Below, one piece after another: positions 19,276-57,600 of a stretch of 64,000 nucleotides of DNA. Each line of letters begins with the position of its first letter. The first letter of the stretch is position 1. The notes beneath the pieces are model-generated. The model searched no databases. It was not told the DNA's origin and saw only the letters and a program-made list of their open reading frames with translations. The translations under genes were made by a program, and so were the position numbers. This stretch comes from a virus. Location: IMG/VR virus record IMGVR_UViG_3300033153_003354, positions 17,383-81,382 of that record, one strand, 5' to 3'.

Positions 19276-19480
19276 TTACCTCGCATGGTTTATTTTCTTC
19301 GTGATAGTGAATGTGTATTCTTGCAATATGATCAATGCCTTCAAAAATAGGTTTGTAAATTTCATACCATTCTCGTCCCATCTCTTCATCAACTACCTCT
19401 AAACACAACATCTGTGGTTGTGGTTGTAGTGAATCATCTATACCCAAATTTTCTTTAAATTCCAAATAATATTGCATCAA
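19262..19480 (-). CDS. Hypothetical protein
   Basis: 72 aa ORF with GGAGG RBS, ending in H-x-H-x-H...C. Confidence 0.55.
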   Translation of the reverse strand: MMQYYLEFKENLGIDDSLQPQPQMLCLEVVDEEMGREWYEIYKPIFEGIDHIARIHIHYHEENKPCEVIELG

Positions 19481-19525
19481 ACTTTCCTCCCATCATATTT
19501 TTCATTTATTCAACTCCTTTATTAT

Positions 19526-20251: not shown

Positions 20252-20280
20252 GATTCTTCAACTCCTTATTCTACTCTATT

Positions 20281-21582
20281 CTACGACAATTGTACTGTTA
20301 CAATTACTTCTGCTCCAGTTTTTCGTACCAGCCAAACTGTGCTGTCCAATCCTATTCCCATTCCGGTATCTCCAACAGCCCAACCAGAAAAATCACCATG
20401 AACTGGTGTATTTCCTGCACATGATATATCTGCTCTTAAATGTAGAGCATAAGCACCAGAATATCTTTGGTTTTGCACATCATCATGATCTACATCTGCA
20501 CTATTTATCATGGTAGCATCTATGTCACCATCCGCATCCAATTTCACTGGTTTTCCTGCATCGCCAGCTCCGGCAGATACATTCAAATGTTCACTTTCTT
20601 GGAAATACTGATTGTCCAATTGTCCTGCATCAAGTTCCGTTTCGGTGTAATACCTTGCATCCCCACGTGTATCATTATGATACTGTGAATGGTCATCGTC
20701 AGCTAATCCACCAACTGATCCGTGGTCAATATCAGCATCGTTCACCATAGTTGCGTCAACATTTCCGTCAGCATCTAACTTAACAGGTTTTCCAGCATCT
20801 CCGGCTCCTGCTGAAACATTGATGTGTTCAGATTGTTGGAAATATCTAGCATCTCCTCTTGTATCATTATGATATTGAGTGTGATCATCATCTCCAAGTC
20901 CAAGGAGGTTTCCATGGTCTGTTGTTTGACCCCAATATTTGAACTCAAGAGCATCGGTATTAACAATATCAGAAGCACTATTATTGATACATCTGAATGT
21001 TGAATCCCCATTCAATGTTCCAGCTTCAACTGCCAAAAATGCACCAGCAGCACTATCTCCACCATCTAAATCTGATCTTCGTGTTAAAGCCCATGGTGTT
21101 TCTGCATCTCCGAGTGTGGTAAGTGTATAAATACCATCATTGATATGACTTGCTCCACCACCTTCATCTTTTACAAGATATTCTTGGTTAAGTGCTGGTG
21201 GAATGGCATCAACTGTTGGAAATGCTCCATTAGCGGAAGCAGTAAGAACATCTAATGTTCTTGTATTTGCTGGTAATGCTTCTGTTGTAGCAACATCCAC
21301 ATTATCTTTACTCACCATCGCTTCTATACTAGCAGCAACATAATCTTCCATCTGTTTAACAGATGAAACATCTTGTGTTCCTGCTCCACCATCACCAAGA
21401 TTGGTAATTTTCTTCGTTCCGGCACTCAAATCCCCAGACAATGCACGTGAACCATCTTCTAGAAGGTATTGTGTGTGATCGTCATCGCCCAGACCTTGGA
21501 CATTTCCATGGTCTATGACACTGTGTATGTCATCTTCTTCGCTTACTCCATGCTTTGTTGCATGTTTATCTGTGTGTCCCAT
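20281..21582 (-). CDS. Fibre-like protein with His/Asp-rich internal repeats
   Basis: Three DHG-x-x-x-GL-x-DDDH-x-QY repeats; duplicated SEH-x-NVSAGAGDAGKPVKLDADG; KITNLGD neck motif. Confidence 0.7.
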   Translation of the reverse strand: MGHTDKHATKHGVSEEDDIHSVIDHGNVQGLGDDDHTQYLLEDGSRALSGDLSAGTKKITNLGDGGAGTQDVSSVKQMEDYVAASIEAMVSKDNVDVATTEALPANTRTLDVLTASANGAFPTVDAIPPALNQEYLVKDEGGGASHINDGIYTLTTLGDAETPWALTRRSDLDGGDSAAGAFLAVEAGTLNGDSTFRCINNSASDIVNTDALEFKYWGQTTDHGNLLGLGDDDHTQYHNDTRGDARYFQQSEHINVSAGAGDAGKPVKLDADGNVDATMVNDADIDHGSVGGLADDDHSQYHNDTRGDARYYTETELDAGQLDNQYFQESEHLNVSAGAGDAGKPVKLDADGDIDATMINSADVDHDDVQNQRYSGAYALHLRADISCAGNTPVHGDFSGWAVGDTGMGIGLDSTVWLVRKTGAEVIVTVQLS

Positions 21583-22065
21583 TTAACTCATCTCCATTTT
21601 TCGTTGATCTTCGGATGCTACCTTAAAGATGATCCACATTGTATCATCATTGGTATCATACCAATAGCACCAATCATCGACCAACGTGATAACTGGTTCT
21701 GTGTCTTGTCTAAAAACCTGTCCTCTCAATACTACATCATTTGTATTTGGTGAATCTACCAATGTACCTTCATGTTCACAACACTGACAATCGGTTGGTT
21801 CTAACAAAGATGGTATGTGTTGTACTAAAGCACAACATCGACAGAATTTCTCATAATAGATTGGTGGCTGTCCATCATGACTTGATATTAAACTATCTAA
21901 TGAAATTTCTTCCTCACCAGATAATTCCCCATCAAAAAATATAGAAAGATTTGGATCGGTGTAATTTGTGTATTGAAGTGTTGTAACTATTGTTTCATCT
22001 GCTTCAATTTCCAGTTCTAATTTAGTTAGATTTACTGGTGTTATTTCATATTGATATTCAGTCAT
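21583..22065 (-). CDS. Hypothetical virion-module protein with CxCC motifs
   Basis: 160 aa; CRCC and CQCC. Confidence 0.55.
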   Translation of the reverse strand: MTEYQYEITPVNLTKLELEIEADETIVTTLQYTNYTDPNLSIFFDGELSGEEEISLDSLISSHDGQPPIYYEKFCRCCALVQHIPSLLEPTDCQCCEHEGTLVDSPNTNDVVLRGQVFRQDTEPVITLVDDWCYWYDTNDDTMWIIFKVASEDQRKMEMS

Positions 22066-22066
22066 C

Positions 22067-22576
22067 TTATTCCACCACCTTTGATATTATCAACCTTTTT
22101 CTTCTGACATTTACAGAAGTTCCAGTTTCACTCCAGAAATAAAAATCAAAATCATAATCACCAGCAGTAGCATCAAGAAAGAAAATCCCCGACTGAATAG
22201 AATATTCGGAACTTAAATTAGCAAAACGTGCAACCTCAACAGAATCAATTTCAATAGAACCAAAACAGCATCGTTCAGTAAAACCAGAGGTGATTCCATC
22301 TCCTTCCATCTCCATTTGATATTCAACTTTATATTTGGCTGTTTCAAGTGTCTTGGTTGTGGTCCACGCTAGTTGAGGAGACGTAGAAGATGTGCTATCA
22401 ACAGCATCTTCACTATCTTGAATTATTTTAGTGCCAAGATTTTGAATGTCTCCACTATGTTGTGTTACCGAAGATGAACTGATTTGTGCATCAGGAACTT
22501 CAACACTAGCATTTAATTCTGCTATACCATTTGCTACACCTTTAAGTGCATCCGTTAAAATTGTTACTAAACTCAT
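22067..22576 (-). CDS. Putative fibre tip / beta-sandwich protein
   Basis: ANGIAELNAS..VP motif then a beta-rich C-terminus. Confidence 0.5.
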   Translation of the reverse strand: MSLVTILTDALKGVANGIAELNASVEVPDAQISSSSVTQHSGDIQNLGTKIIQDSEDAVDSTSSTSPQLAWTTTKTLETAKYKVEYQMEMEGDGITSGFTERCCFGSIEIDSVEVARFANLSSEYSIQSGIFFLDATAGDYDFDFYFWSETGTSVNVRRKRLIISKVVE

Positions 22577-24150
22577 ATTATCTCTCCTTCATTAACAAAC
22601 GCAAAGATGTTGATGGTAACATCGTCAGTGGCACATTCTTCAACAGCCAACCCGCCAACACCATCATCGTACATTTTATTCACTCTCACATTAGTTTCCC
22701 AATGATCTGTGACCCAATTGTTCTTGATAATAGGTACAAACATTAACTGATCATCATATGTAAGATTCTTAGGTTCTACTGTTACATACACACTGAACAA
22801 CTCATTGGCAATCAGACCCGTGAGTTGACTATTATAATCAATGGTAATTCCTGTTGTTTTGACATAATCAAATATCCCGAATCGGGTTTCAATATCGTCT
22901 GCAATCACGCCATCCATTGTCTTTGCAAGAACTATATAATCATCAATTCTATCAAGTGCTTTCTGGACAGTGTCTTCACTGGCAGTTAGCACCCTATTGA
23001 AATTACCAACAGTAGTATTAATCTGACTAGCAAGATAATCACCAGCCACAGCAATAATTGCACCGATACGTCCAAATACAGAACTTACTGCATGAGAATT
23101 AAGAATCTTCTCATAGGTTGTTCCATTATGTAACGCCCAGTCACCCACATCAAATGAGATGTTACCAGAACCAAGATCTTGTGTTCCAGCTACATTAACG
23201 ATGTAGAACCACCCTGCACTACCAGTAGCATCTGCAATTGCTGGTGTGTTAGTTGTAGCGTTCCATCCTCCTTTGGGTTCGAGTTGGTTTAAAATTGCAT
23301 CTGGAATGTTGGCAGTGGGTATAAGTGCAGCAGCATCCAACGGACAATAACCATTAGCAACATCACGTTCACTCTCTTTTTGATATTGAATATGTGGGTC
23401 AGATAATGCAACGTGATCGGCCACAGAAGCATCAGCAACAACATCTGCTTCTGCATCTGTATATCTCTGACCAAACGCCATACCATCATCCAATGCTGTT
23501 CCATCTGTTACTTTCTCTACTTTTCCGTTGGCTTTTATCCCACCAGTTGTCACAATTTTACCTGTTGATGGTACTATAAAAAATCCTGATTTGGTTGCAA
23601 AAAACATACTCGTCCATACAGATTCAGTCATTAATGTGCCAAAGAAATGTGCTTCAACATTTGGATTATTATGTACCGAACCCTGCACAGTCCCACCATA
23701 CATCCAAATCTCTGCCCATGTAACAGAACCAGATTCGGAAGAATTTTGAAGAATCACATTATGGTTTATAGTGATTGACCAGTTATTCCCAAAAGTGAGT
23801 GTACTGATGCCACCCCACCAAGACGTTGAAAGTATTGATGCGGATTTATAAATTCCGGCATCTGGTAGTGTGACATTTTGTGAAGAACTTCCTTCATCAT
23901 CATCAACCATGATGTTTCTGTGTTCGTTTTCAGCTATCTGGTCAATGGCGTGTTGAATTGTTTCATACGGTTTATAAAGTGTCCCTTCTCCATCTACATC
24001 ACTACCCCTTGATTGTGAACACCATACAAAACTTGAAGGATCACCAAATTTGTTACCATCTATTGATGTATCAACTGGAAAAGCAACTGAATCAGTATAA
24101 GTGTGTGGCAATTGATCTTCAAAATGTGTCCACCCATGAAATTTAACCAC
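22573..24150 (-). CDS. Fibre/spike-like protein
   Basis: GTLYKPYETIQHAI (DUF1565-like), HVALSDPHIQY, KGGWNATTNTP and VSSVFGRIGAI fibre motifs. Confidence 0.65.
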   Translation of the reverse strand: MVKFHGWTHFEDQLPHTYTDSVAFPVDTSIDGNKFGDPSSFVWCSQSRGSDVDGEGTLYKPYETIQHAIDQIAENEHRNIMVDDDEGSSSQNVTLPDAGIYKSASILSTSWWGGISTLTFGNNWSITINHNVILQNSSESGSVTWAEIWMYGGTVQGSVHNNPNVEAHFFGTLMTESVWTSMFFATKSGFFIVPSTGKIVTTGGIKANGKVEKVTDGTALDDGMAFGQRYTDAEADVVADASVADHVALSDPHIQYQKESERDVANGYCPLDAAALIPTANIPDAILNQLEPKGGWNATTNTPAIADATGSAGWFYIVNVAGTQDLGSGNISFDVGDWALHNGTTYEKILNSHAVSSVFGRIGAIIAVAGDYLASQINTTVGNFNRVLTASEDTVQKALDRIDDYIVLAKTMDGVIADDIETRFGIFDYVKTTGITIDYNSQLTGLIANELFSVYVTVEPKNLTYDDQLMFVPIIKNNWVTDHWETNVRVNKMYDDGVGGLAVEECATDDVTINIFAFVNEGEII

Positions 24151-30132: not shown

Positions 30133-31713
30133 TTAACCCTTTCTGAAAAATTTATCTATTTTACTGGAAACACCATTTCTTATTCCCGGCAACATTGCAG
30201 AGATTAAATTAGATCCGGCTGTTCCTGCACTCATGTCTGTACCCAAAGCAAATTCTGAAGATGAATCATTCCACAAGTTATGACCATGAACCATTAAAAT
30301 AACAGCGTTTACAATATCATCTCTATATCCTTTTTCATGTTTATACCTAAATCTTCCAGAAGGGAGTTTTTTCTTTGTGAATTTCTCAAATTGATTGGTT
30401 TGTTCTTCATCCATCATTAAATTAATCCCTGGTTGTGGTTGTTGCTCTGCCAAAATTGTAAATTCATCTACCATCATTGCTTTTAATTCATTATTATATG
30501 TTATTGGTTCCAAATAATCTATTTTTTCATCTAACAAATCATAAACTGGAGTACCAACACCAGTATAATCAACACATGCAACAACAGGATTATACATATT
30601 CAAATCTTCTTCGATCTCATCAATTATCCTTGCATAAGATTTATCACCTATTCTATTTAAATATATTTGATTTAATGAAAATTTATCATTTGGTAACTTT
30701 ACTTTTTTACCAATTGATACAACTGTTTCTGCTGGTGATTTACCTATATCAATTCCAGCATAATATTCTTGACCATCTATATATGGTTCTTCACAATTGA
30801 TTGTAGTAAGTTCTTTTAATAATAAATATCTCCAAACATTACCAACATCAAAATTCCATTTAAGTAAAAATTCCTGATCAAAAGATGCTTTTGGCGTGGT
30901 TGCTTTCATCGTGTTAACATAATTTAAATTTGTAAGAGGACTTTCTAAATATGTTTGTGTAACAACTCTCATGTCTGTTTTTCCTGCTCGTTCTGCTTTT
31001 TGATATTCGATAAATGTATCATGAAAATGATTTTTCCCAGCGGGTGTTCCTGTTTCAAAAACACGTGCATTAGTAGTTGAACCAGACGGTTTTATATCTT
31101 CATGATATACCCTATCTGATATATCCTGGGATTCGTCCAGTCTTATTTTTGTTGGTGAAAATCCCCTAACATGTGATTGATCTGAAGCAGAAAGAACTGT
31201 AATTTTATTTCCATTTCTAAACTGAACCAATTCTTTAGTGAATTCTTCTGTAAATCCCATTAATATATTGTTCCCCTTTATAAACTTTCTAATATGCCCA
31301 AAGATGATGTCTGCTTGTTTTTTTATTGGAGCATATATGATGGTTTCTTCTGTATCATCTTCGGCATAAATATCTTCATGTATTTCATCTACAGCAACAA
31401 TAAATGATTTTCCGCCTTGTCTATTAAATAAAAACAAACCAAACTGACAATTTCTAGTAACATTTACAACATCCATTTGTTTTGGTGTTATTTCTACTGG
31501 TTTATTTCTTACAGTTAATAAATTTCTAGCAAAAACATCAATATAATTTTCCATACTATCTAAAAATATTTGAAAATCATCTTTGGTTATAGAGTGTTTT
31601 GTATTTGGTATATGACTTCCTTTAACATCTCTAACATCAAAGTAATCAGCAAATTCCTCATCTTTACTAGCTTCTGCCACCGCACGTGGAACATCGTTGG
31701 TTCTAAAACTCAT
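30133..31713 (-). CDS. Terminase large subunit
   Basis: Walker A RQGGKS, Walker B RLDE, motif GTP, RNase H-like nuclease GIDIG ... DDIVNA. Confidence 0.95.
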   Translation of the reverse strand: MSFRTNDVPRAVAEASKDEEFADYFDVRDVKGSHIPNTKHSITKDDFQIFLDSMENYIDVFARNLLTVRNKPVEITPKQMDVVNVTRNCQFGLFLFNRQGGKSFIVAVDEIHEDIYAEDDTEETIIYAPIKKQADIIFGHIRKFIKGNNILMGFTEEFTKELVQFRNGNKITVLSASDQSHVRGFSPTKIRLDESQDISDRVYHEDIKPSGSTTNARVFETGTPAGKNHFHDTFIEYQKAERAGKTDMRVVTQTYLESPLTNLNYVNTMKATTPKASFDQEFLLKWNFDVGNVWRYLLLKELTTINCEEPYIDGQEYYAGIDIGKSPAETVVSIGKKVKLPNDKFSLNQIYLNRIGDKSYARIIDEIEEDLNMYNPVVACVDYTGVGTPVYDLLDEKIDYLEPITYNNELKAMMVDEFTILAEQQPQPGINLMMDEEQTNQFEKFTKKKLPSGRFRYKHEKGYRDDIVNAVILMVHGHNLWNDSSSEFALGTDMSAGTAGSNLISAMLPGIRNGVSSKIDKFFRKG

Positions 31714-33230: not shown

Positions 33231-33368
33231 ATGGTATCATATATCAAAAGAGCAAGAAAAATAGGAGGATCCTTGGTTGTAACAATACCAATGGAAATAG
33301 CAGAAATATTAGAAATAAAAGATCGTGACTTTGTTAAAGTTGTATTGGAAAAGGTAAATGAAAAATGA
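33231..33368 (+). CDS. AbrB/MazE-type DNA-binding protein (45 aa, absent from the ORF track)
   Basis: MVSYIKRARKIGGSLVVTIPMEIAEILEIKDRDFVKVVLEK; leaderless after TTTATATA at 33201; ATGA overlap with tnpB. Confidence 0.88.
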   Translation: MVSYIKRARKIGGSLVVTIPMEIAEILEIKDRDFVKVVLEKVNEK

Positions 33369-34375
33369 TATTGACATTCAAGATTAGACATAACCGAGAT
33401 TTCACTGATGAATTGGTAAAAGCCAAAAAGATAGCAGAATTTGGAATAAAAACAAAGGCTTTATCTTCTGCTGCTGTTAAACATATTGGGTTAAAATCTG
33501 CAATAGCATGTCAAATTTTACGTAAATATTCTAAAAATAAAAAATGTAAATCTGCATCAAACGTATTATTAACAATCCCTGGACAAGTTATAAAACACGA
33601 TAAAGAAAAACAAACAATATGGATTGCTTGTTTAAAACTGAATTTGGATTATTATTTTCGTAATGATTTTGAAAAAATAAATCAAATTGAAATTAATGAT
33701 AAATATGCATTTGTATCAATAACAATACCAGATGAAAAACAAATAAAACCAGAGGGATATATTGGTGTAGATCTAAATACAACTGGTCATTCGGTTGTTA
33801 TTGGAAATCCAGAAACAGGAAAGGTTGTCAAGATGGGTAAAAATGCTCATCATATTCATAAAAAATATAGTAAGATAAGAAAAAATTTACAGAAAAAAGG
33901 CAAATTTGGGAGATTGAAAAAACACAAAAATAAAGAAAATAGAATAATTAAAGATATGAATCATAAGATGAGTAGAAAAATTGTCAATATGGCAAATGAA
34001 AATAATAATGGTATAAAATTGGAAGATTTAAAAGGAATAAAAAATAGAGTTAAATCATCAAAATCATTCAAATATTCTTTGAACAGTTGGTCATTTTATC
34101 AGTTACAGAAAATGATAGAATATAAAGCCAAGATGCTAGGAATACCAGTAATTTATATTGAACCACAATACACAAGTCAGTTGTGTTCAAGATGTGGTCT
34201 TATAGGTAACAGAAATGGTAAGAAATTTAAATGTCCAAGTTGTAACCATGTTGATAATGCCGATGTAAATGCTTCATTCAATATAGCACTACGTCCAGAA
34301 GGTATGTATCAATTCGATGCAGACAGAGATGTATCGGAAGGGTTTAATGGTAATCCTAAAGAGGAAATGGTATGA
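33365..34375 (+). CDS. tnpB: TnpB / Cas12f-like RNA-guided nuclease
   Basis: RuvC-I GVDLN, RuvC-II LEDL, TSQLCSRC...CPSC zinc finger, RuvC-III ADVNASFNIA; all catalytic acids intact; no tnpA in the window. Confidence 0.93.
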   Translation: MILTFKIRHNRDFTDELVKAKKIAEFGIKTKALSSAAVKHIGLKSAIACQILRKYSKNKKCKSASNVLLTIPGQVIKHDKEKQTIWIACLKLNLDYYFRNDFEKINQIEINDKYAFVSITIPDEKQIKPEGYIGVDLNTTGHSVVIGNPETGKVVKMGKNAHHIHKKYSKIRKNLQKKGKFGRLKKHKNKENRIIKDMNHKMSRKIVNMANENNNGIKLEDLKGIKNRVKSSKSFKYSLNSWSFYQLQKMIEYKAKMLGIPVIYIEPQYTSQLCSRCGLIGNRNGKKFKCPSCNHVDNADVNASFNIALRPEGMYQFDADRDVSEGFNGNPKEEMV

Positions 34376-42512: not shown

Positions 42513-44657
42513 ATGAAAAGTGAATATTTAATTGGTGATGCCAAAGATGTGTTGAAAACACTACCAGATAAACATTTTCAGTGTGTTGTTACAAGTCCTC
42601 CTTATTGGGGGTTGCGATCATATTTGCCCGATGATGATGCAGAGAAAAAGAACGAACTTGGTACTGAACAAACACCAGAAGAATATGTTGCCAACCTAGT
42701 TGATGTTTTTCGTGAAGTAAAAAGGGTGTTACGTGACGATGGAAATGTTTGGTTGAACCTGGGCGATAGTTATGCTTCATCTGCTACTGGATCATTTAAT
42801 GGAGGAGGATTCAAAGATTCTTCTGCAAAATCGGGTGGTAGAAATTTATCTGGAGTAGAATCAAGTGGAAAAATGGATAAATTAAAAGCAAGTGGACTCA
42901 AACCAAAAGATTTGGTTGGAATCCCGTGGCGTGTCGCATTTGCACTTCAGCAGGACGGTTGGTGGTTACGCCAGGATATAATATGGTGTCTATCAGGAGG
43001 AACCTATCTATACGTCAAATCACAGAAGGGAATCATGCCGATGACGGTGAAAGATTTATACCGACTCGATTTGACAAAATGTCAATTATGGAACGGTGAT
43101 AAATGGACTAATATACTCGGTATGAACAAATCTAAACGAAAAGGCGATGAGTTGGAAATGGTTTTACGAAGCGGAGAAAGAATATCATGTACACCAAATC
43201 ATAAATTCCCAACCGAAAGAGGAAATATAGAAGCATTGGAAATCGAAATTGGGGATGTAATTGAATCTGTTATGTTGCCCGATGGGAACACACCAGAATA
43301 TATCAATGCTGAAATGGCATGGTTTATTGGCATCTATTTGGCGGAAGGGTCTAAAAGCGGAAGTGCGTTGCAGATAGCGGGACATGTCAAAGAAAAAACT
43401 CGGTGGGAACGCATACAGCAAATGGTGAAGTATTATGGGGGCTCTTGTACCCGTACAATATCCGGCAATAAAATGGACATCCGGGTTTATGGTAGAATCA
43501 TTCATGCTATCATAACTGAACATATTTCTGGAAGAATAGCAAAGAACAAAGGACTGTCTAATAAATGTTGGCAATACGATAACAAGTTTTTGGATAACTT
43601 ACTAACTGGGTATCTGGAAGGTGACGGTCATTGGGACAAGGAAAATAAAAGGTGGCGACTCGGATTCACACGAAACTATAATCTTGAACGTGATTTGAGA
43701 TCGTTGTCTGCAAGGCTGGGATATTCCATAACATTAAAACCCAACATATCGGAAAATACCGTAACAGGGAAAAAACACCCATCATTCAGAGGCGAAATTA
43801 GGAAAACCGTATCTAATCACCACAATAATAAATCAAGAAATGAAGTGGTTGAAATTCGTAAAGCAAGATGTAGGTATGTGTATGACTTGGGTGTTGAGGA
43901 TTACCCACATACATTTTCGTTGGCAAGTGGTATATTAACACACAACTCAAAGCCCAATCCTATGCCAGAAAGTGTTACCGACAGATGCACAAAATCCCAC
44001 GAATACGTCTTTTTGTTGACTAAATCGGCAAGATATTATTACGATTCTGATGCAATAAGGGAAAACCACGACCACCCATCAATAAATCATAAATCGGATA
44101 GAAAAACCACTGAACAAGAAAAATCGTTCATCGGAAAAGCACCAACAAATTTAGGTAGATGTGGTAACAACCCAAACGGCAGAAACAAACGCTCGGTGTG
44201 GACAATTAATACAAAACCGTATAAGGAAGCTCATTTCGCAGTATTTCCGCCAGAATTACCAGAACTGTGCATAAAAGCTGGAACAAGTGCCAAAGGACAA
44301 TGCTCGAAATGTGGAAATCCTTGGATTAGAGAAATTGAGAAAATACAAACCAACAAAAGCAACGAAAAAGGTATAACTGAAATGATAGAAAAAGGTGTTC
44401 CAAGACAAAAAGCAAATTTATATGTTACACAAAAAAGAGGAACAAATAAAACAATCGGATGGAAACCAACATGTGATTGCAATGCAAAAATCGTACCACA
44501 AATCGTTCTAGATCCCTTTGCCGGAAGTGGGACAACAATTATGGTTGCAAAGGAACTTGGCAGACATGGTATTGGAATTGATCTCAATGATAAATATCGT
44601 GAAATTGCTGTCCGAAGATGTAATTTAGATGTTGAATCAGTGGAGGATTTCTTTTGA
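42513..44657 (+). CDS. N4/N6 DNA methyltransferase (beta-class) containing an intein
   Basis: VTSPPY catalytic motif, HFAVFP, LDPFAGSGTT SAM-binding motif; Zn-ribbon insertion CSKC...CDC. Confidence 0.95.
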   Translation: MKSEYLIGDAKDVLKTLPDKHFQCVVTSPPYWGLRSYLPDDDAEKKNELGTEQTPEEYVANLVDVFREVKRVLRDDGNVWLNLGDSYASSATGSFNGGGFKDSSAKSGGRNLSGVESSGKMDKLKASGLKPKDLVGIPWRVAFALQQDGWWLRQDIIWCLSGGTYLYVKSQKGIMPMTVKDLYRLDLTKCQLWNGDKWTNILGMNKSKRKGDELEMVLRSGERISCTPNHKFPTERGNIEALEIEIGDVIESVMLPDGNTPEYINAEMAWFIGIYLAEGSKSGSALQIAGHVKEKTRWERIQQMVKYYGGSCTRTISGNKMDIRVYGRIIHAIITEHISGRIAKNKGLSNKCWQYDNKFLDNLLTGYLEGDGHWDKENKRWRLGFTRNYNLERDLRSLSARLGYSITLKPNISENTVTGKKHPSFRGEIRKTVSNHHNNKSRNEVVEIRKARCRYVYDLGVEDYPHTFSLASGILTHNSKPNPMPESVTDRCTKSHEYVFLLTKSARYYYDSDAIRENHDHPSINHKSDRKTTEQEKSFIGKAPTNLGRCGNNPNGRNKRSVWTINTKPYKEAHFAVFPPELPELCIKAGTSAKGQCSKCGNPWIREIEKIQTNKSNEKGITEMIEKGVPRQKANLYVTQKRGTNKTIGWKPTCDCNAKIVPQIVLDPFAGSGTTIMVAKELGRHGIGIDLNDKYREIAVRRCNLDVESVEDFF
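42987..43946 (+). mobile_element. Intein with LAGLIDADG homing endonuclease (320 aa)
   Basis: IIW|CLSGGT N-terminal junction, CTPNH block B, YLAEGS and YLEGDG LAGLIDADG motifs, VYDLGV...ILTHN|S C-terminal junction. Confidence 0.95.
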
Positions 44658-47522: not shown

Positions 47523-47950
47523 AAAAATCTCTACCAATTGACGACCTTTTATATTTCCGAAAAGTTATAAATATATTTCTCTGGAGCTAGAAATCTCTAC
47601 CAATTGAGTCAATTACGTTTTGGTTTAATTATTTGTCGTTCCGATAAAAAATAAACCAAGTTCCAAAAAATCTCTACCAATTGAGGGTGCTGGGACACAA
47701 AAAAGAGGTGATTTTGTCCAACCGAGCTGTGTCCCAGCGAAGTGATACAGGTCTGCCCGGTTTCTTACAGTGTTTCCATCCGTTTGTAAACCACTATATG
47801 ATGCACGTAGTATAAATACTTTCCTACCCCAAAGATGTTTTGCTGGACAAATGTCCAAATAACCACTTGGTTAAGAGTAAAATGACCGATTATAACACCG
47901 AAATAACCACTAAATTAAATTTTCGTCTGGTCAAAATCCCTACCAATTGA
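47523..47950 (+). repeat. Four direct repeats AAATC(T/C)CTACCAATTGA (iteron- or pac-like)
   Basis: Core CTACCAATTGA at 47531, 47597, 47674 and 47940. Confidence 0.85.
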
Positions 47951-48142
47951 ACAATTTAATAATTATATTGTTTTTAATTATCAAAATGTTATTTCACTAT
48001 GATCTCAAATGTAATCCATAGACGGTGTCATAAACTATCCTTAAACCCACCATAACGCCATTCAAATCTTTAAAACGTATCAAACCATACCAAATCATCT
48101 TTGTTGGCCCAGGATTGACTGTTTGATACCTTAAACGGCGTT

Positions 48143-48586: not shown

Positions 48587-49679
48587 ATCACCCCGATTTG
48601 TGGTTTTATCGGATTTTCGACAAATCCAGAAAACGGATCACCAACAATCTATGTCAAAGATGTATAAAAACCTTTCCCAAGGATGATTTTATAGACCCCA
48701 TGGGTCTATCGCCCAAAATACTCCAAAAGTCAGGGGAAGTATATAATCTATTATTATTATATACAATACTGAAACGAAATATTTATCAGTGGTGGTATTT
48801 AAACTTCCACTACTAGAAGTTTAAGTTTATATACTTACATAAATAACAAGTCAAATAAACAAACCATATATTAGAATAATATATGGTATAGTATGCCTAA
48901 ATATCCAAACCTTCTATATATACCTTGACATGTCAGTTGTGGTAGTTCTATTATTACCACTACTGTGAAGTGATAGAATTAAACTATATAAACTTGCACT
49001 GCCAGCCATGTTGTCGTATTATATTATGTATATAATATAGGGATCTGCTTGTTATCTTTCTATTATATATATTTTATGGAGTGTTACTTTTCCATATTTT
49101 GCAATTCTGTGGACCGATTTTAAATTTGATATCCGTTAAACCTCGAAATACTCCATATATTCAATAAAAAGGGGTCAAAACTATCACGGAATCGAAAACC
49201 ACCCAAAATCGAAAAAAAGGGGGGTCATATATATAGATGAAGGAAAAAATAATGTTTTTTTGATAAAGTGTGTTTTTTTACAATATATATAATAATTTCT
49301 ATTACTAGTCAGATAACACCACTAACAAGTGGGATTACAAATGGAATTGTTAGTAAATTAACCAAAGATGGAAATGTAAATTTGACTATCAATCGACTAT
49401 TAAATTCATCATTTTGTTGTTCTGTGTAACTTGCAGTGACATAGATCAACCATATCATCTTTGGTATAGATTACTATAGAAATAAGATTGATGATAAAGT
49501 GGAAAGGACACCCGTGAGTGTTTAAGAATAAAGTGTTGTGATCGTCTGTGTCCTATTCCAAAGATGAATGTACTTGTATGTATATAAATGTATTGGTCGT
49601 TTGATTGTCCGGTTGTTCCGTTAATCCTACGGAGTAATGGATCAAACGGCGTACATATACTAACCATCACAAATCATCT

Positions 49680-50306
49680 TTGGGTCGACACATGGACCTG
49701 TATGGGTGGTTTCTGTGGACAATAAATACTTATACATCTTTGGATATAACATATTATATGATTCCAAAGAGGGATGAAAAACGAGAACAACGAATAATAA
49801 AACGATGTATTAAATTACTTAAATATTATAATATTACAAATGTAAACGTGGTGTTTGATGGTAGGTTGAAACATATGTCTTATTATAATCAATTAAGTAG
49901 AAAGATAGTTTTAAATTCAACCTGGTTATATGCTAATACCCAAACTATGTTTTGGACACGTGTTGTTCTACATGAGATCGCACACGTCATCCATTGGGAT
50001 GAATATATTTGGTTGCAACCATCACAATTTCATAATAATATGTTTAAAGAAATATTCTTTTCTATTGGTGGAACAGGATGTGGGAATGAAACACAAGATG
50101 GAGATTTTAAAAACTTATATAATGTATATAAATGTAATAAATGTGGTTATAAATGGTATTCACCAACAAAATTTATAGACAAAGAACACCCACATATATC
50201 TGATACTTGTGATGGTATGGTAATACATATAGGATCAAAAATACTTTCCACTGGAAGTGTAGACTCAAAGATGAAGTTGAAAACTATTTCCACTGGAAAT
50301 CAATAG
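49680..50306 (+). CDS. SprT-like zinc metalloprotease
   Basis: VLHEIAH, H..MFK, YKCNKCG; true start probably ATG near 49758. Confidence 0.75.
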   Translation: MGRHMDLYGWFLWTINTYTSLDITYYMIPKRDEKREQRIIKRCIKLLKYYNITNVNVVFDGRLKHMSYYNQLSRKIVLNSTWLYANTQTMFWTRVVLHEIAHVIHWDEYIWLQPSQFHNNMFKEIFFSIGGTGCGNETQDGDFKNLYNVYKCNKCGYKWYSPTKFIDKEHPHISDTCDGMVIHIGSKILSTGSVDSKMKLKTISTGNQ

Positions 50307-51683: not shown

Positions 51684-54600
51684 ATGGAACTAATATGGAC
51701 AATATTCGTAGGCGTGTTACTTGCAAATGTAGTTGGATCAGTGGTGACTTTTCTTTTGGTAATGTTGCCATTATCACTATTACAATATGTATTGAAAAAG
51801 AAACTAAATGAACAACTAGTGAAATTATGTGTAGATGCCAAACTAAATCATGTCATTATAGAAAAGTGAAAGGTGGAACAAAATGACCAAAGATGAATTT
51901 AATTGGACCGAAGATAAAGTGATGGATTTTATTGACAAACAAGATGAATTCAAAAAACATTGTCGAGAAGTGGTAGTAACAATTCAAGAAATAAGAACCA
52001 GTAATAATTTCAATTATAAATTCAAAGAATATGATTCTATATCAATTGAAGAAGGAACGGTATTTGTTGAATATGAAGAAGATTTATGTGGTTGTTGTGA
52101 TAATAGAATGTCAATTACATTTCCTATTAAATATCTTTGGGCAACCATAGAGGATTTTGAACAATATGAAAAGGATCTTGAAAAGGCTGCTATGGCAACA
52201 GAAGCATATAGGAAAACGATGCTTGAAGCGGCCAAGTTAAAAAAAGAAATTCTGGAAAAACAAGAATATGATCGTCTTCGGGAAAAGTTTGGTGATTAAG
52301 ATGGGTATATATGAAAAATGTTACAAAGAACAATACGGAGAAGAGTTTGAAGCATGGAAATCAGATACATCCGATACATATAATGAATGTATGGATAAAT
52401 TGATTAATTCAGGAGTTGGCATAATGGATGCTTTCATATTTGTAGAAGAAATAATTTCCGCCACTAGGGAAGAATATGGTGATTAAATGGAACATCAACA
52501 TAGATTTTATCGTGTGACAACAAAAGATGGACTCAAGGGACCATTTGAACCAATAGAAGAACTAATACTAACAATAGGTAGTATAAATATAGAGGATTAT
52601 CCATTATCAATAGAATTAAAAGAAATGACATTTGAAGAATATGAAGATCTACCAGTATGGTTAGGATGGTGAGTGAATGATAACAGTAACACATTGTAAT
52701 AAATGTAAGGGCGATGGATCTTATCTAACTGGTGGAAACAGAGAACGAAAAATATATGGTCCAGGTGGATCACAAACGTTTAAGACATGTAGTAAATGTA
52801 ATGGAACTGGTCATGTTGTTAAAGAGGTGAGTAAATGACATGTTTAGAATGTGGATGCCCAATGATAAGAGAACAGTATGGAAGATGTCAATGTGATTGT
52901 GAGTGGTGCGATCCTGATTTATAGGACCAATAAGTTTATATACTACCATCATTATTAGGTTGTTAAGGTGAAACCAAAGATGGAAAACAAAGTGAAGGTG
53001 GAACATGTGATTAATCATATAAAAATAAAAGAAGAAATACAAAGATTAATAGAATTGGACAAGCAAGAAAGAGAAATACTTCTTGATATTACTAATAAAA
53101 CAGAAAAAGTAATTGCTGATATTAAATTTTTAAATGGTAGAATGCATGCATATAATATGGTATTACATTTAATGGATAAACAAGAATTTCAATATGTGGA
53201 GGATTTGTGAATGGAAAACAAAGTGACAAAGGATGATTTACGAGTATGTGAAGTAATGATTCCAAATGAATTATGTGTGCTGAAGGCAAATAATCATATT
53301 GGTGATGATGTATATATTGTCAGACCACACTCTACCAATTATGATACAAAGATATGTAAGAATTGTACATTTCAACAAATGTGCAGGAATTCACAGTAGG
53401 TGAAACAAAATGATAACATGGTTACTTCTTTGGTTTTTAGGATACCGTAGACTAATTGTAAACAGTAAAGAAACTTGTTTTAAATCCAAAGGTACAGTCA
53501 TTTGGATAGGTAAAGATGGAGTTTTATATTCATGGATGACAGATAGATATTCTATGTTTGGATATTCATGGTTCCGTAAAAAACCAAGTAGAAAATATTG
53601 GGGCGGGTATATTTCTGGTGGATGCTGGGAAAGTTATATTTTAGATGATCTTATTGGATATATAATAAAAGATCGTCCATCAAAGATGAAGGAACAAACA
53701 GAAATACTAGTTATAAAATGCGTTCCAACATTTAGATGTGAATATGGTTTTGAAACAGATAACGTTCTTATAATGAACGATCATCATGTGGAGTGTTACA
53801 CATATGAAGGATAAACGAATTTTTAAATACAAATTAAACATAATCGATAGTCAATATATTCCAATGCCACAAGGTTCACAAATTCTATCAGTCAAAGAAC
53901 AAAATGGAACATTAAATATATGGGCAATAGTAGATATAAATAATGATAATATCAAAAATAGATGGTTTTACATCTTTGGAACAGGAAATGAATTTGATAT
54001 ATCTCTTGATGATGCTAAATTTATTGGCACTGTGGTAATGTCAAATGGTCTAGTATGGCACGTTTTTGATGGTGGAGAAACACAATGAATAAAAATGAAC
54101 AATATCGACACACCTCCCACCTGACCCAGACAGGTGTAAATTATTCTGGGTGGAGCGGGGATCTCTCGGTCCCGTCACCGAGTCCAGGCGGTGAGTATCC
54201 TGGACATCATCTTTGGGTCCATAAACTATATATACTTCCACTACTATAGGGTATTAGAGGTGTCACAAAATGAACCAAGAAACAAACCATAAAAGTGAGC
54301 CACACGACAAGTTCATAGTAAAATGGGTCCAGGAGGAGAATGATGGAAATCTTGTTGAATTAAAAGATGATTTCAACTCACTTCATGATGTAAACGAACA
54401 CATCACTCAACTACGACTCTATGCAGAACATACAGGAAAAACTTTCAAAGTAATATCTATTACAGAGGTGATCTAGATGATCGAAGATGATGTTAAATAC
54501 ATATGTCCAGATGCACCAGGTGGATGCAAATCATTGCATTGTTATCACAAAAATCCACATCAACATATAGATTATTATTGTGACACAGATGGAAAAATAT

Positions 54601-57600
54601 GTGGTCATGTTTGTGAGAAGGTGGAATGATGAAAGGAACAATATATTTTCTAACACATGGAAACGAAAAACCAGAGATAATAACTTATGATGAAGTTGAA
54701 AATGAGGATCATTTCATGAATATGATGGTTGCAGCAGTAATAATCGGAAAAGAAGATGGAATATTCACGGATAAGGCGGTTGGATATTTCAATGGTGTGT
54801 GGTATCATGCCATACCTGAAAAGGAGGCCGAATAATAGCATGTTCAGAGTGTCCACACTGTGGTTGGATGGGTAATCAAATGACTTGTCCAGAATGTGGA
54901 TGGATTTGTGTATATGATGAAAGGGAGGAAGATCAATGAAAACAATAGAAGAAATCAGAGAATTTCTAGTGTCTAATGGGTATGAAATGAAAATAAATTC
55001 TACAAAATATATACAAATAAAACCAAATCAACACGAAGAATATCCCAAAACAATCTTTGGTTTGTCAAATAATGATTCTATTTATGGATCAGTTTGTGAT
55101 GGTTTTTCATGTACACGTGATGATAATCATGAAGGACCGCATGAGGCTGGATTTGAAACTGTAGCAGTTGCGTGGTGGACAACTAAAAATGTACCCAAAG
55201 ATGAATATATGGGTCCATTAGGTGATATGAGAGAACCAATGGTCGTTATATGTCCGAAATGTAAAGGACACGAATTTAATGTTGAATCATGTGATTTTTG
55301 TGAAAGAACTGGTACGATAATCTCATGGATGTTGGTTTCTGATCTTATGAAATGGTTAGAATATCATGCGTGTTATTACGGTTTTGTAAAGAAGGCGGTG
55401 CTTGCTATAGAAACAATAAACCACAAAAACGAAGATGAACAAGTGGATCCAAGTGAAGATAAAATATCATCATCAAAGTGTTCGAAATGTGGTTTTCTTT
55501 ATGAAGGAGAAATTCGAATATCTTGTCCCAACTGTGGATTAATCATTCCACAAGATTGTTTGATAAATAGTGTTGAATTAGATGAACATGACAAGTTAGC
55601 ATTAACACAGTATAAAGACAATGATCTTCAAAAGGAAATCAAAGTCGGAAAAAAGCAAGCAATAAAAAATATAAAATGTTTCTCTAGGAGAACGTTTGAT
55701 TAAAGGTGATTGAATGAAAATTGCATGTGAAGAATGTAGATTTTGGTTGAAAAATGAGCCGGATATAGGCAATTGTAAAAAATTACCTCCAACACCAAAT
55801 TTTGATTTTAGTGGACCAATATCACTGTGGCCCAGAACACGATCCAGAGATTGGTGTTATTCTGGTGAATATAAGGAGAGTGAATAAATGAAAATCATCA
55901 TTGAAGAAGATATTAAAGGAACAGGAACAGTAATAGATATAACAAAAAATGCCATAGTCATTGGATCTGGAAGATATGATATTATCATTTGTACCAATGC
56001 TTGGTTTGAAGATGTGTTTGAATGGGTTATGGATGATATAGATTGGTTGTTACCATTCTTTGGATATATTCAGTGGAATGTGGAGGAATAAAATGACAAC
56101 AGATAAAGTTTTTATAGAAGTATGTTATTGTATTGATAGGTGAAAATATGAGTTATGACATATATCTAATGGATCCACACACCGGAAAAAACCTTGAAAT
56201 TAAAAACAAACATACCATCTCTGGAGGAACATATTGTGTTGGTGGAACTGAACGTCTATGGTTGAATGTGACTTATAATTATGTCAAACATTTTAAAAAA
56301 GTTTTTGGAAAAAAGGAATTAGAATTATCTATGGGAAAACTGCTGAAGAAACAATTCCCATACTTAAGGATGCGATTTCAAAACTCGGAGATGATGTGGA
56401 TGATGATTATTGGAAATCAACCGAAGGAAATGCCAAAGATGCATTGAAAAATCTTCTTAAGTTAGCTGAACTTGCACCTGACGGAGTATGGAATGGTGAT
56501 TAAATGAAAATATCAGCAGGAGTATTCTTTTTATTCGGTTTCCTTTGTGCTACATTTGCATATGCAATACTTTCATTCCTCAACCCATCTGTGGATCCAT
56601 TGTTGATTTTGTGCAGCATTGGGTTTGTTGGTGGTATGTTTGGTATGATCTTCGAGAAAGGTTATGTTTTGTATAACGAAAACAAAGATGAAATAAAAAT
56701 ATTGTATGATAAATATAAATCAAAGATGAATATTGACCAATAAGTATAAATAGTAACATCATTATGTAGTTAGTAGGTGAAATAAAATGACCGACTTGAA
56801 AATAGATTTGAATGTTGTTGTTGAATGCAAAAACTGTGGCAATACACTTGATGTAGATTGTGATTTAGATGCACACCATCTTTGGATAAGTATGAAACCA
56901 TGTAAACATTGTATTTCAATTCTTGTTGAAGAATCAAAAGATAGAATTCAAGAACTTAATTCGATTGGACGAGATCAAGAAGAACGAATACGAGAAATGG
57001 AAGATGAATTAAGTAATAGATAAGGAACACAAAAAAATAACCAAACAAAAGGAGAAAAAAACATGAATGCAAAAGAAATAAAGGATTTGAAGTGGGTCGA
57101 GCTGAACGGAAAAAGATATTTGGCAAATGTCAACAAGGACGAAAGTGGAGTTACAACACTTGATAATTCTCTAGAAATCTATTCCATTGGTGGACATGAT
57201 AATAGGGAAGATTTGAGAAAGTATCTTGAAGTTAAGAATGTTGATGAACTCAAGACAATCACTGTAAGTGGAAACATCACTCTATCAGTCCAGGATCTCA
57301 CGGCACTACAGGTTGAACAGATGACAATGTTCGCAAGTGCAATGAAGAGAGCAAAAGACATTGATACCAAGATGTCTGAGAATGACCGTTATAGATCGTT
57401 CACGAATTAGACGGGATTATCCAGTCTTTTCTTTTTTCCAAAGGAGATGAAACATGTTCAAAACCCCTAATATAATGAAAAACAAAAATGACAAACCATC
57501 ATTGGTAATACCAAAAATATTTCTTGATAATGTATCAGATGAAGATATTGCAAAATTCAGTGATATGATATGTGAAGTGATGAAAGCTGGAGTGATTACA

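What the first reader, a model, noticed from the sequence alone, without database searches (positions are those of the whole stretch)
54114..54205. GC-rich island folding into tandem H-type pseudoknots
Seen: about 90 nt at roughly 60% GC in an AT-rich genome. PK-A: S1 CACCTG(54118)/CAGGTG, loop A, S2 CCCAGA/TCTGGG, 8-nt loop 3, enclosed by CTCC/GGAG. PK-B: S1 TCACCG(54175)/CGGTGA, loop A, S2 GTCCAGG/CCTGGAC, 4-nt loop 3. Between them is a GGGATC/GGTCCC hairpin whose CTCGG can alternatively pair with CCGAG, competing with PK-B. Established: a 1-nt loop 1 across a 6-7 bp S2 with no loop 2 is the classic H-type geometry, which fits the plus (transcribed) strand. It ends just before a CATCTTTGG site and promoter. 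Inference: an undescribed ncRNA or 3'-UTR element (nuclease block, protein decoy, switch or ribozyme).
Basis: partly seen in the sequence, partly recalled or inferred. Interest (0 to 1): 0.8.

Follow-up and report, generated by a model that had tools for sequence, protein, structure and literature searches.

The report
Twin pseudoknot RNA candidate in virus
A 92-base GC-rich patch between two small genes of an AT-rich, probably archaeal, virus can fold into two look-alike compact RNA pseudoknots far more often than chance allows, but no relative or expression data exist, so its role is still a guess.

Summary
The island is the most GC-rich 80-nt window of the 81-kb contig (0.61 against 0.33 +/- 0.06). 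Its two compact H-type pseudoknots are the only GC-containing ones in the whole genome on either strand. Of 20,000 composition-matched shuffles, 10 gave one such knot and none gave two.

New here: the two knots are diverged copies of one module, with 23 of 28 aligned bases identical. A structure-preserving null reached this score in 119 of 20,000 trials. Of 12 PK-A pairs, 9 are unchanged in PK-B, 2 changed on both sides, 1 was lost as a whole pair and none is broken.

It is not a tRNA and matches no Rfam family. The overlapping 54-aa ORF has atypical codon use and no real homologue.

No homologue of the element was found in any collection, so there is no cross-species covariation and no expression evidence. 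CTCC/GGAG cannot coexist with the full PK-A.

Best guess (0.27): a plus-strand non-coding RNA with two protein-binding pseudoknot modules, resembling type III antitoxin RNAs or phage pseudo-antitoxin decoys. Close rival: a 3'-UTR decay barrier. The scan had not noted this element on other DNA.

The parts
54118..54150 (+). Pseudoknot module A. S1 is 54118-23/54131-36 (6 bp), L1 is A54124, S2 is 54125-30/54145-50 (6 bp), there is no L2, and L3 is 8 nt (54137-44).
   Evidence: Sequence read; inverted repeats I6 and I2; knot scan; stacking energies.
54158..54173 (+). Middle hairpin GGGAUC/GGUCCC with a UCUC loop. It has one G-U wobble, which would be an A-C mismatch on the minus strand.
   Evidence: -9.3 kcal/mol on its own.
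54175..54205 (+). Pseudoknot module B. S1 is 54175-80/54189-94 (6 bp), L1 is A54181, S2 is 54182-88/54199-205 (7 bp), there is no L2, and L3 is 4 nt. It is a diverged copy of module A.
   Evidence: I9 and I3; similarity to module A.
54114..54155 (+). CUCC (54114-17) and GGAG (54152-55). This is an alternative outer helix that can form with S2-A alone, not with the full PK-A.
   Evidence: used in the nested fold; the incompatibility is inferred from topology.
54165..54182 (+). Competing 6-bp helix CUCGGU/ACCGAG. It excludes the middle hairpin and S1 of module B.
   Evidence: I8; it appears in the nested minimum-energy fold.
54085..54249 (+). Overlapping 54-aa ORF. Its ATG overlaps the upstream TGA. 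It is the rival coding reading.
   Evidence: Codon score is -0.20, the only negative value among 16 neighbouring small ORFs. No homologue or family found.
53786..54088 (+). Upstream DUF7352 gene, the last clear gene of the unit driven by the TTTATATA box at 52935.
   Evidence: Pfam PF24043, E = 5.8e-25; promoter boxes.
54208..54216 (+). One copy of the genome-wide CATCTTTGG motif, immediately 3' of module B.
   Evidence: 39 copies in the window against about 1 expected.
54227..54234 (+). TATATATA box of the next transcription unit. GGTG 54259-62 is the ribosome-binding site for the ATG at 54270.

Best explanation
The island encodes a non-coding stretch of plus-strand RNA. It is carried on the tail of the transcript that starts at the TTTATATA box at 52935. 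It folds into two compact H-type pseudoknots, each with 6 + 6-7 bp coaxial stems and a single-A loop 1, separated by a hairpin.

The two knots are diverged copies of one roughly 31-33-nt module. The most likely way it works is as a pair of protein-binding pseudoknot modules, that is, a sponge or decoy. The closest working analogue is the repeated pseudoknot RNA of type III toxin-antitoxin systems and the pseudo-antitoxin repeats that phage PhiTE carries between two genes.

Shown here: the pairing potential, its non-randomness, the copy relationship with pair-preserving changes, and the absence of coding signals.

Inferred: that it is transcribed, that both knots form, and that a protein (for example a host endoribonuclease toxin) is the partner.
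For: 1. Both knots exist at the stated positions and are the only GC-containing compact knots in 81 kb on either strand. Of 20,000 local shuffles, 10 had one and 0 had two.
2. The island is the top GC outlier of the contig. Its G and C are balanced (skew 0.02) and its purine content is 0.49, whereas the six neighbouring ORFs tabulated have purine 0.57-0.63 and five of the six have GC skew of +0.22 to +0.35 (the downstream ORF at 54270 has 0.0). This fits a self-complementary RNA.
3. Modules A and B align with 23 of 28 columns identical. Only 3 of 5,000 shuffles reach this score, and 119 of 20,000 random knots of the same architecture and pair content do.
4. With no structure used in the alignment, 11 of 12 PK-A pairs map onto PK-B pairs. 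9 are the same, 2 changed on both sides (C-G to U-A, A-U to G-C), 1 U-A pair is absent as a whole, and none is changed on one side only.
5. Rough energies: the knotted model is about -40 kcal/mol against a nested minimum of -35.5.
6. Geometry matches a solved antitoxin. In passages read from PMC5086642, CptI has two coaxial duplex stems and an L1 of a single base. Antitoxins are tandem repeats that each form an H-type knot. Type III loci are also reported in Archaea. Phage TE carries pseudo-ToxI repeats.
7. PMC3475682 (abstract and passages) places those phage repeats in an intergenic locus. PMC12283969 (passages) reports arrays of two non-identical repeats with up to 35% variation.
8. The coding reading is weak.
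Against: - No homologue of the element was found anywhere, so there is no independent covariation.
- There are no expression data.
- The internal covariation is biased by ascertainment, because both copies were noticed for pairing perfectly.
- The copy relationship depends on the alignment. MAFFT aligns the modules differently (17 identical columns of 34), and Tandem Repeats Finder reports nothing.
- The modules start 57 nt apart and are separated by a 24-nt stretch that holds the middle hairpin. Known antitoxin arrays are contiguous and are described as 36 nt for ToxI.
- Loop 3 of module B (GUAU) is not A-rich, unlike CptI.
- No Rfam antitoxin family matched.
- No ToxN-like gene is in the 81-kb record, and there is no clear defence-family hit among 7 neighbouring ORFs: two have only marginal matches at E = 0.0014-0.008 and 14-16 bits (PDC-M38A for the DUF7352 ORF, Cas12f for the 255-aa ORF), and the other five have none.
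- The host and any toxin are unknown.
- No TTTATATA-type box lies directly upstream.
- The energy margin disappears if the knot penalty is about 12 kcal/mol instead of 9.6.
Confidence: 0.27

Rival explanations
1. A 3'-UTR decay barrier or unit boundary. The knots and hairpin sit at the 3' end of the 52935-54088 operon transcript. They stop exonucleases and so stabilise the upstream message, or they protect the 5' side of read-through RNA for the next genes. They also separate the unit from the next promoter.
For: - Exact TTTATATA boxes lie at 51641 and 52935 and a TATATATA box at 54227. There is none between 52935 and the island, so the island is the last thing before the next promoter.
- It is GC-rich and stable.
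- Stable 3' structures at operon ends are the commonest structured elements in viral intergenic gaps (general knowledge).
Against: - A simple hairpin would do the job. Nothing in this role calls for two copies of a compact knot that keep their pairs.
- No run of 5 or more T follows the island, only CTTTG.
- No other operon end in the contig has such an element.
Confidence: 0.2
2. The 54-aa ORF (54085-54249) is a real gene. The RNA structure is either incidental or tunes its translation.
For: - The ATG overlaps the upstream TGA (ATGA), as at other gene junctions nearby.
- GGTGGAG lies upstream, with GGAG 7 nt before the ATG.
- Its frame is the best of the three.
- Without it, the 181-nt gap is large for this gene block.
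Against: - Its codon score of -0.20 is the only negative one among 16 neighbouring small ORFs.
- Purine content and GC skew are unlike the neighbours.
- It is not present as a called protein in the 5.8-billion-cluster collection, whereas both flanking ORFs returned themselves.
- There is no Pfam hit.
- The six phmmer hits are long repeat proteins of unrelated kinds, in which 3-9 weak stretches per protein are summed.
- The GGTGGAG encodes the DGGE tail that is conserved in DUF7352 relatives, so it need not be a ribosome-binding site.
- GGTG is 10 nt from the ATG, a spacing seen in 2 of 38 genes.
- Coding does not explain the knots.
Confidence: 0.13
3. A translational operator in the leader of the downstream genes on read-through transcripts, like the knot upstream of the T-even phage gene 32. 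A protein nucleates on the knots and spreads over the AU-rich 64 nt to the ribosome-binding site at 54257-62.
For: - The knot geometry is the same kind. The single-base loop 1 of the gene 32 knot is recalled; the solved T2 structure 2tpk is named in a passage of PMC6007934.
- An AU-rich stretch (54206-54269) follows and ends at the GGTG site and the ATG at 54270.
- ACACCUC 54110-16 is complementary to GAGGUGU 54257-63.
Against: - A TATA box lies between the knots and the gene, so the main mRNA would lack them.
- The downstream 68-aa protein has no family and no homologue.
- The downstream start region ranks 57 of 150 as a pairing target of the island.
Confidence: 0.08
4. A DNA-level element. 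The overlapping palindromes are binding sites for a regulator of the 54227 promoter, or a recombination site. RNA folding is irrelevant.
For: - There are five perfect or near-perfect inverted repeats in 92 bp, directly upstream of a promoter and next to the genome-wide CATCTTTGG motif.
- The shared half-sites CACC...GGTG in both modules could be two operators.
Against: - CACC-N8-12-GGTG dyads occur only twice in 81 kb, both here, so no other promoter shares the site.
- Interleaved rather than nested or separate dyads, with loop lengths that fit H-type geometry on one strand only, are not expected for protein-binding sites.
- A T-G wobble is tolerated in RNA, not in a DNA dyad.
Confidence: 0.08
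5. An independent small RNA of about 100 nt with its own weak promoter (A/T-rich 54088-54096), acting in trans on mRNAs through its CACC (anti-Shine-Dalgarno-like) words.
For: - An A/T-only octamer ends about 22-23 nt before 54118. This is the same spacing seen between TTTTTAAA and the viral tRNA start and between TTTATATA boxes and near-leaderless starts.
- GGTG is the ribosome-binding word of this virus: 38 of 130 genes against a 4.3% background. S1 of both knots is a CACC/GGTG duplex.
Against: - The octamer differs from TTTATATA at 5 of 8 positions. A/T-only octamers are common at 33% GC (estimate).
- There is no outlier target among 150 start regions.
- The CACC words are paired inside the knots.
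Confidence: 0.07
6. No function: a remnant of foreign GC-rich DNA or a recent local duplication that happens to be self-complementary.
For: It is single copy, has no relatives, and no expression data exist (and all collection scans).
Against: Shuffle and natural-sequence controls. Pair-preserving differences between the copies. It is intergenic and is the top GC outlier.
Confidence: 0.07

Closest known systems
Type III antitoxin RNAs (ToxI, CptI, TenpI) and the pseudo-ToxI repeats of phage PhiTE
   Same: [quoted passage not shown]
- CptI has two coaxial duplex stems and a one-base loop 1.
- TenpI arrays often have about two non-identical copies.
- PhiTE carries such repeats in an intergenic gap without a toxin gene.

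Source: passages read from PMC5086642, PMC12283969 and PMC3475682.
   Different: - Here the copies are 57 nt apart with a hairpin between them, not head to tail.
- They are GC-rich.
- Loop 3 of module B is short and not A-rich.
- No Rfam antitoxin model matched.
- There is no ToxN-like gene in the record and no clear defence-family hit among the neighbours, only two marginal matches at 14-16 bits.
- The virus looks archaeal and the host is unknown.
Autoregulatory pseudoknot in the gene 32 mRNA leader of T-even phages
   Same: - A compact H-type knot with a very short loop 1 crossing a 6-7 bp stem 2, in a DNA virus (details recalled; the solved structure 2tpk is named in PMC6007934).
- It is followed by an AU-rich stretch leading to a ribosome-binding site.
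   Different: - Two knots rather than one.
- A promoter lies between the knots and the next gene.
- The next gene is a 68-aa orphan, not a single-strand DNA-binding protein.
Pseudoknots that stimulate -1 ribosomal frameshifting or readthrough
   Same: Stable GC-rich H-type knots with no loop 2. The overlapping ORF is in the -1 frame of the upstream gene.
   Different: - There is no X XXY YYZ site 5-9 nt upstream of either knot.
- The upstream frame has already stopped 30 nt before PK-A.
- Reading through the TGA meets another TGA at 54122-24.
Tandem pseudoknot arrays in tmRNA and in plant-virus 3' UTRs
   Same: Several H-type knots in a row; the plant-virus arrays lie in a 3' untranslated position (recalled).
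   Different: - No tmRNA was detected.
- This is a DNA virus, not an RNA virus.
- No tRNA-like end follows.
H-type pseudoknot riboswitches (preQ1, SAM-II/V, guanidine-III, fluoride)
   Same: Small knots, sometimes in tandem (recalled).
   Different: - No covariance-model match even at E up to 10.
- The element lies upstream of a promoter rather than between a promoter and a gene.
- The loops are too short to form a ligand pocket of those kinds (inference).

Membership tests
Any Rfam 15 family (including ribozymes, riboswitches, antitoxin RNAs, CRISPR repeats, C/D and H/ACA RNAs) | Covariance-model score at or above the family's gathering score | tested here: not met
   The whole window gave only the tRNA at 829-904. 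In 53900-54400 at E up to 10 there were four chance-level rows. The only one touching the island was CyaR, at 16 bits against a cut-off of 47.
tRNA / tmRNA | Cloverleaf, or tRNA-like domain with a tag reading frame | tested here: not met
   ARAGORN on the window. ARAGORN with intron, relaxed-score and tmRNA options on 54000-54300 found 0 genes.
Type III antitoxin RNA | Tandem direct repeats of one short unit | tested here: inconclusive
   There are two diverged copies: 23 of 28 aligned bases identical, reached by 3 of 5,000 shuffles and by 119 of 20,000 in the structure-preserving null. They are not contiguous, Tandem Repeats Finder finds nothing, and MAFFT aligns them differently.
Type III antitoxin RNA | Each repeat can form an H-type pseudoknot | tested here: met
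   This is pairing potential only, with no probing data.
Type III toxin-antitoxin locus | An endoribonuclease toxin gene (ToxN, CptN or TenpN kind) downstream of the repeats and a terminator | tested here: not met
   PF13958 gave no match in the 81-kb record at E up to 1. Of 7 neighbouring ORFs scanned against PADLOC, five had no hit and two had only marginal matches at E = 0.0014-0.008 and 14-16 bits: PDC-M38A for the DUF7352 ORF and Cas12f for the 255-aa ORF. The downstream ORFs are 68, 50 and 69 aa. The record is only about 60% complete.
Phage pseudo-antitoxin decoy (PhiTE kind) | Sequence similarity to the antitoxin of a host toxin-antitoxin system | not testable with these tools
   The host is unknown. 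A 17-mer scan of 185,579 species genomes gave 30 chance-level hits with no extension.
-1 frameshift stimulator | Slippery heptamer 5-9 nt upstream, inside a frame that is still being translated | tested here: not met
   Read. The upstream stop is at 54086-88. There is no X XXY YYZ in 54100-54113. The nearest A-run, 54091-95, is 22 nt before PK-A.
Gene 32-type translational operator | The knot lies at the 5' end of the leader of the gene it controls, which encodes the binding protein | tested here: not met
   A TATATATA box at 54227 lies between the knots and the ATG at 54270. The 68-aa product has no family or homologue.
HDV-like ribozyme | Nested double knot with a P3 hairpin between the P2 5' strand and the P1 3' strand | tested here: not met
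   In both knots S2a runs directly into S1b with 0 nt between them. There is no Rfam match.
IS200/IS605 omega RNA | Overlaps or follows the 3' end of a tnpB gene | tested here: not met
   The TnpB-like ORF is at 33365-34375, 20 kb away. The island shares no stretch of 12 nt or more with the rest of the genome apart from the CATCTTTGG motif.
Mini-CRISPR array or solitary repeat unit | Near-identical direct repeats matching a CRISPR repeat family | tested here: not met
   The copies are identical at only 23 of 28 aligned bases and carry indels. No CRISPR-DR model matched.

The most novel reading that the evidence does not exclude
An archaeal-type virus carries a previously undescribed RNA made of two duplicated compact pseudoknot modules. 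Selection has kept the base pairs of both modules. The RNA acts as a decoy that neutralises a host RNA-binding defence protein, for example a type III-like endoribonuclease toxin. Alternatively, it mimics the Shine-Dalgarno/anti-Shine-Dalgarno helix, since both S1 stems are CACC/GGUG duplexes. This would be the first RNA-based anti-defence element, and the first pseudoknot RNA family, described for viruses of archaea.
Probability: 0.15. Interest if true: 0.75.

Novelty: new variant of a known kind. Interest (0 to 1): 0.5.

Why it matters
Structured RNAs of archaeal viruses are almost unexplored. My full-text searches for 'archaeal virus' together with 'pseudoknot' and 'non-coding RNA' or 'H-type pseudoknot' returned 3 and 2 papers. 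From their listings, and from passages of one of them, none describes such an element.

If the twin knots are real, they give a small and easily synthesised RNA with clear predictions: compensatory mutants, nuclease challenge and protein pull-down. If the decoy reading is right, RNA mimicry of antitoxins would extend from a single phage example to viruses of archaea.

If it is only a 3' stabiliser, it is an ordinary element with an unusual shape.

Tried and rejected
Identities rejected
- tRNA, intron-containing tRNA or tmRNA.
- Any Rfam family.
- A second copy elsewhere in the genome.

Sequence searches for relatives
- Phage GenBank records: nothing for the 1.6-kb region. For the island alone, only five 27-nt matches in five Bacteroides phage records, each at E = 4.
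- Exact patterns from PK-A, PK-B and the hairpin: none in IMG/VR. PK-B gave none in JGI metagenomes. PK-A gave three hits there with no similarity outside the 19-mer.
- The 17-mer gave 30 hits in species genomes, about what chance gives for 596 Gb (my estimate). None extends. The two DPANN hits lie in one intron-containing tRNA, and the match stops at 17 nt, so an attachment site or tRNA fragment was rejected.
- A word descriptor shared by both modules matched 117 IMG/VR loci: 107 without a knot, 10 with a single knot, none tandem. The AT-rich one, L045, is low-complexity coding sequence.
- A tandem descriptor gave 128 matches in the loci held: 123 without a knot, 5 with one, 0 with two.

Synteny
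- Six, then 21, DUF7352 loci from IMG/VR were examined. 0 of 21 have a compact knot within about 400 nt downstream.
- The terminase and the 255-aa neighbour have no close relative in IMG/VR.

Other tests
- Sequencing runs: none was listed and no RNA holder was listed.
- Trans targets: no outlier among 150 start regions.
- Shared operator: the CACC...GGTG dyad occurs nowhere else.
- Frameshift, readthrough, HDV-like fold, C/D and H/ACA boxes, MITE ends and target duplications were checked by eye and rejected.
- The phmmer hits to the 54-aa ORF (E down to 7e-9) were rejected as repeat-summed matches. The best single stretch scores 27 bits, and the top two proteins belong to unrelated repeat kinds.
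- The tail of unit A against the motif after unit B (10 of 12 by eye) was not significant: 277 of 3,000 shuffles matched or beat it.

Not done or not available
- Supplementary files were not consulted. Table S3 of PMC3475682 and the supplements of PMC12283969 may hold repeat sequences that bear on the comparison.


Full report
Setting. The window is bases 17383-81382 of an 81,382-bp linear IMG/VR virus record that is about 60% complete. Its GC content is 33%. It encodes a Mu-like portal, a large terminase, an SNF2 helicase and a TnpB-like protein. It uses exact TTTATATA boxes 22-31 nt before start codons, and GGTG-type ribosome-binding sites in 38 of 130 predicted genes against a 4.3% background. 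The TATA boxes I saw agree with that, but I did not test it further.

Observation.
- The stretch 54114-54205 is 60% GC, with GC skew 0.02 and purine fraction 0.49. Only 5.5% of 92-nt windows in the same plus-strand gene block have so low a purine fraction.
- It holds the most GC-rich 80-nt window of the contig: 0.61 against a mean of 0.33 and sd of 0.06.

Is it more than chance? I wrote a scanner for compact H-type knots: S1 of 6 and S2 of 6-8 Watson-Crick pairs, L1 1-2, L2 0-1, L3 2-10.
- On both strands of the window it finds three distinct sites.
- Thirty whole-window dinucleotide shuffles gave 1.03 sites on average. Of 20,000 shuffles of the 101-nt island, 10 had one knot and none had two.
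- With looser rules (5 + 5 pairs) over the whole 81-kb genome, all 17 rows that contain at least 6 G-C pairs belong to these two knots. The minus strand has none.
- The criteria were chosen after seeing the finding, so the exact probabilities are optimistic. The conclusion that the pattern is not random is still safe.

Energetics.
- Nested folding alone is unremarkable: z = -0.65 on the plus strand and -1.65 on the minus strand.
- Summing stacking energies and adding a knot penalty of 9.6 kcal/mol plus small loop terms (values recalled from the Dirks-Pierce model) gives about -13.8 for PK-A and -17.0 for PK-B. With the middle hairpin at -9.3, the total is about -40, against -35.5 for the best nested fold.
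- The margin disappears at a penalty of about 12, so this supports the knots but does not decide the matter.

Strand and topology.
- A one-base loop 1 across the deep groove of a 6-7 bp stem 2 is established geometry (a general statement is in PMC6007934; the one-base detail is recalled, and for CptI comes from PMC5086642).
- On the minus strand that one base would have to span the shallow groove of a 6-7 bp stem, and the hairpin's G-U would become A-C. If the knots form, they form in plus-strand RNA, which is the sense strand of this gene block.
It is an alternative pairing, as is CUCGGU/ACCGAG, which competes with the hairpin and with S1 of PK-B.

New finding: the two knots are copies.
- A plain global alignment of 54118-54150 with 54175-54205 gives 23 identical of 28 aligned columns. 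3 of 5,000 shuffles reach this score.
- Random knots with the same architecture and the same base pairs reach it in 119 of 20,000 trials.
- Carrying the PK-A pairs through this sequence-only alignment, 11 of 12 land on PK-B pairs. 9 are identical. Two differ on both sides and stay paired (C-G to U-A, A-U to G-C). One U-A pair is missing as a whole. None is altered on one side only.
- This is covariation between paralogous copies, and it argues that both helices of both copies have been kept.
- Caveats: both copies were noticed because they pair perfectly. MAFFT aligns them differently. Tandem Repeats Finder reports nothing. The apparent extension of the repeat into the hairpin and the CATCTTTGG motif is not significant.

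What it is not.
- It is not a tRNA or tmRNA and not any Rfam family.
- It is not a frameshift or readthrough signal. The upstream frame stops 30 nt before PK-A, there is no slippery heptamer, and there is a second in-frame TGA at 54122.
- It is not an HDV-like fold, not next to tnpB, and not repeated in the genome.

The 54-aa ORF. Points for it:
- It has an ATGA overlap with the upstream stop.
- A GGAG lies 7 nt upstream of its ATG.

Points against it:
- Its codon score is the only negative one among 16 neighbouring small ORFs, and its composition is unlike the neighbours.
- It is absent from the protein collection, which returned both flanking ORFs, and it has no Pfam family.
- A full HMMER pass over 1.84 billion representatives gave six hits. 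All are long repeat proteins matched in 3-9 stretches, and the two I aligned belong to unrelated repeat kinds. The best single stretch scores 27 bits. I read these as summed weak matches.
- The GGTGGAG before the ORF encodes the DGGE tail conserved in DUF7352 relatives.

Relatives.
- None was found. Details of the sequence scans are under Tried and rejected.
- Synteny gave nothing either: 0 of 21 DUF7352 loci have a knot downstream.
- The closest DUF7352 proteins are in Logan contigs that I could not fetch.
- No sequencing run could be listed.
- So there is no between-genome covariation and no expression evidence.

Context and mechanism.
- Exact TTTATATA boxes lie at 51641 and 52935 and a TATATATA box at 54227. 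None lies between 52935 and the island.
- The island is therefore most simply the tail of the 52935 transcript, ending just before the next promoter and one copy of the genome-wide CATCTTTGG motif.
- Two readings fit best. A 3'-UTR decay barrier fits the position, but it gives no reason for two pair-conserving copies of a compact knot. A protein-binding pair of knot modules fits the anatomy.
- The only well-studied RNAs built as tandem copies of an H-type knot are type III antitoxins. One of them, CptI, has just this geometry (coaxial duplex stems, one-base L1). Arrays of about two non-identical copies are reported for tenpI. Type III loci occur in Archaea. Phage PhiTE carries antitoxin-like repeats in an intergenic gap that suppress the host toxin when expanded (passages).
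- Against membership: the 24-nt spacer with a hairpin, the GC richness, the short loop 3 of PK-B, no antitoxin model match, no toxin gene in the record, and only two marginal defence-family matches among the neighbours.
- I therefore say that it may work like such an RNA, not that it is one. I give that reading 0.27, the barrier 0.20, a real small gene 0.13, and leader operator, DNA site, independent small RNA and no function 0.07-0.08 each.

Verdict. This is a well-supported candidate structured RNA with an unusual duplicated-knot architecture, found in a virus group where no such element is described in the papers my searches reached. It is an orphan, and its function is unproven.

Noticed in passing
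window, 39 sites, e.g. 31297-31311, 49673-49686, 54206-54219: The over-represented CATCTTTGG motif is really longer, about (A)TCATCTTTGG(GT), with exact shared stretches of 12-15 nt. It occurs on both strands regardless of gene direction.
   Followed up: partly
window 51641, 52935, 54227 (also upstream of 33231, 35982, 46203): There are exact TTTATATA boxes 22-31 nt before start codons, some close enough for near-leaderless mRNAs. The viral tRNA-Arg (829-907) has TTTTTAAA ending 22 nt before its first base.
   Followed up: partly
window 33365-34375 and 54936-55703: A 336-aa TnpB-like ORF matches Cas12f1-like_TNB at 9.5e-26. A 255-aa ORF 700 nt downstream of the island has only a weak zinc-ribbon match to the same domain.
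   Followed up: no
window 42513-44657: An N6/N4 DNA methylase ORF has an intein-splicing domain hit of 34.8 bits, just under the cut-off of 35.8.
   Followed up: no
window 47950-47980, minus strand: This is the only other compact knot-like arrangement in the window. It is entirely A/T and lies in the region earlier notes call iterons.
   Followed up: no
L019 2594-2723 and L026 near 5769-5785: Two DPANN archaeal MAGs carry a tRNA with a 60-nt insert that Rfam finds (54 bits) but ARAGORN in default mode misses. It shares a 17-mer with the minus strand of the island and nothing more.
   Followed up: yes
window 18000-24000: A block of raised GC (0.36-0.43) holds a Laminin_G_3 / ConA-like ORF (18082-19275) and three of the five most GC-rich 80-nt windows of the contig. 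It is possibly foreign structural genes.
   Followed up: no
window 54071-54077 and 54149-54155: GGTGGAG occurs as an exact 7-nt direct repeat, once at the end of the DUF7352 gene and once inside the island. CUCCCACC (54114-21) could pair with either copy. About 1.5 such repeats are expected by chance in 231 nt (my estimate).
   Followed up: partly
proteins P0010, P0011: A short query searched against proteins with many internal repeats gets library-wide E-values down to 7e-9 from summed weak stretches. This is a trap for small-ORF searches.
   Followed up: yes
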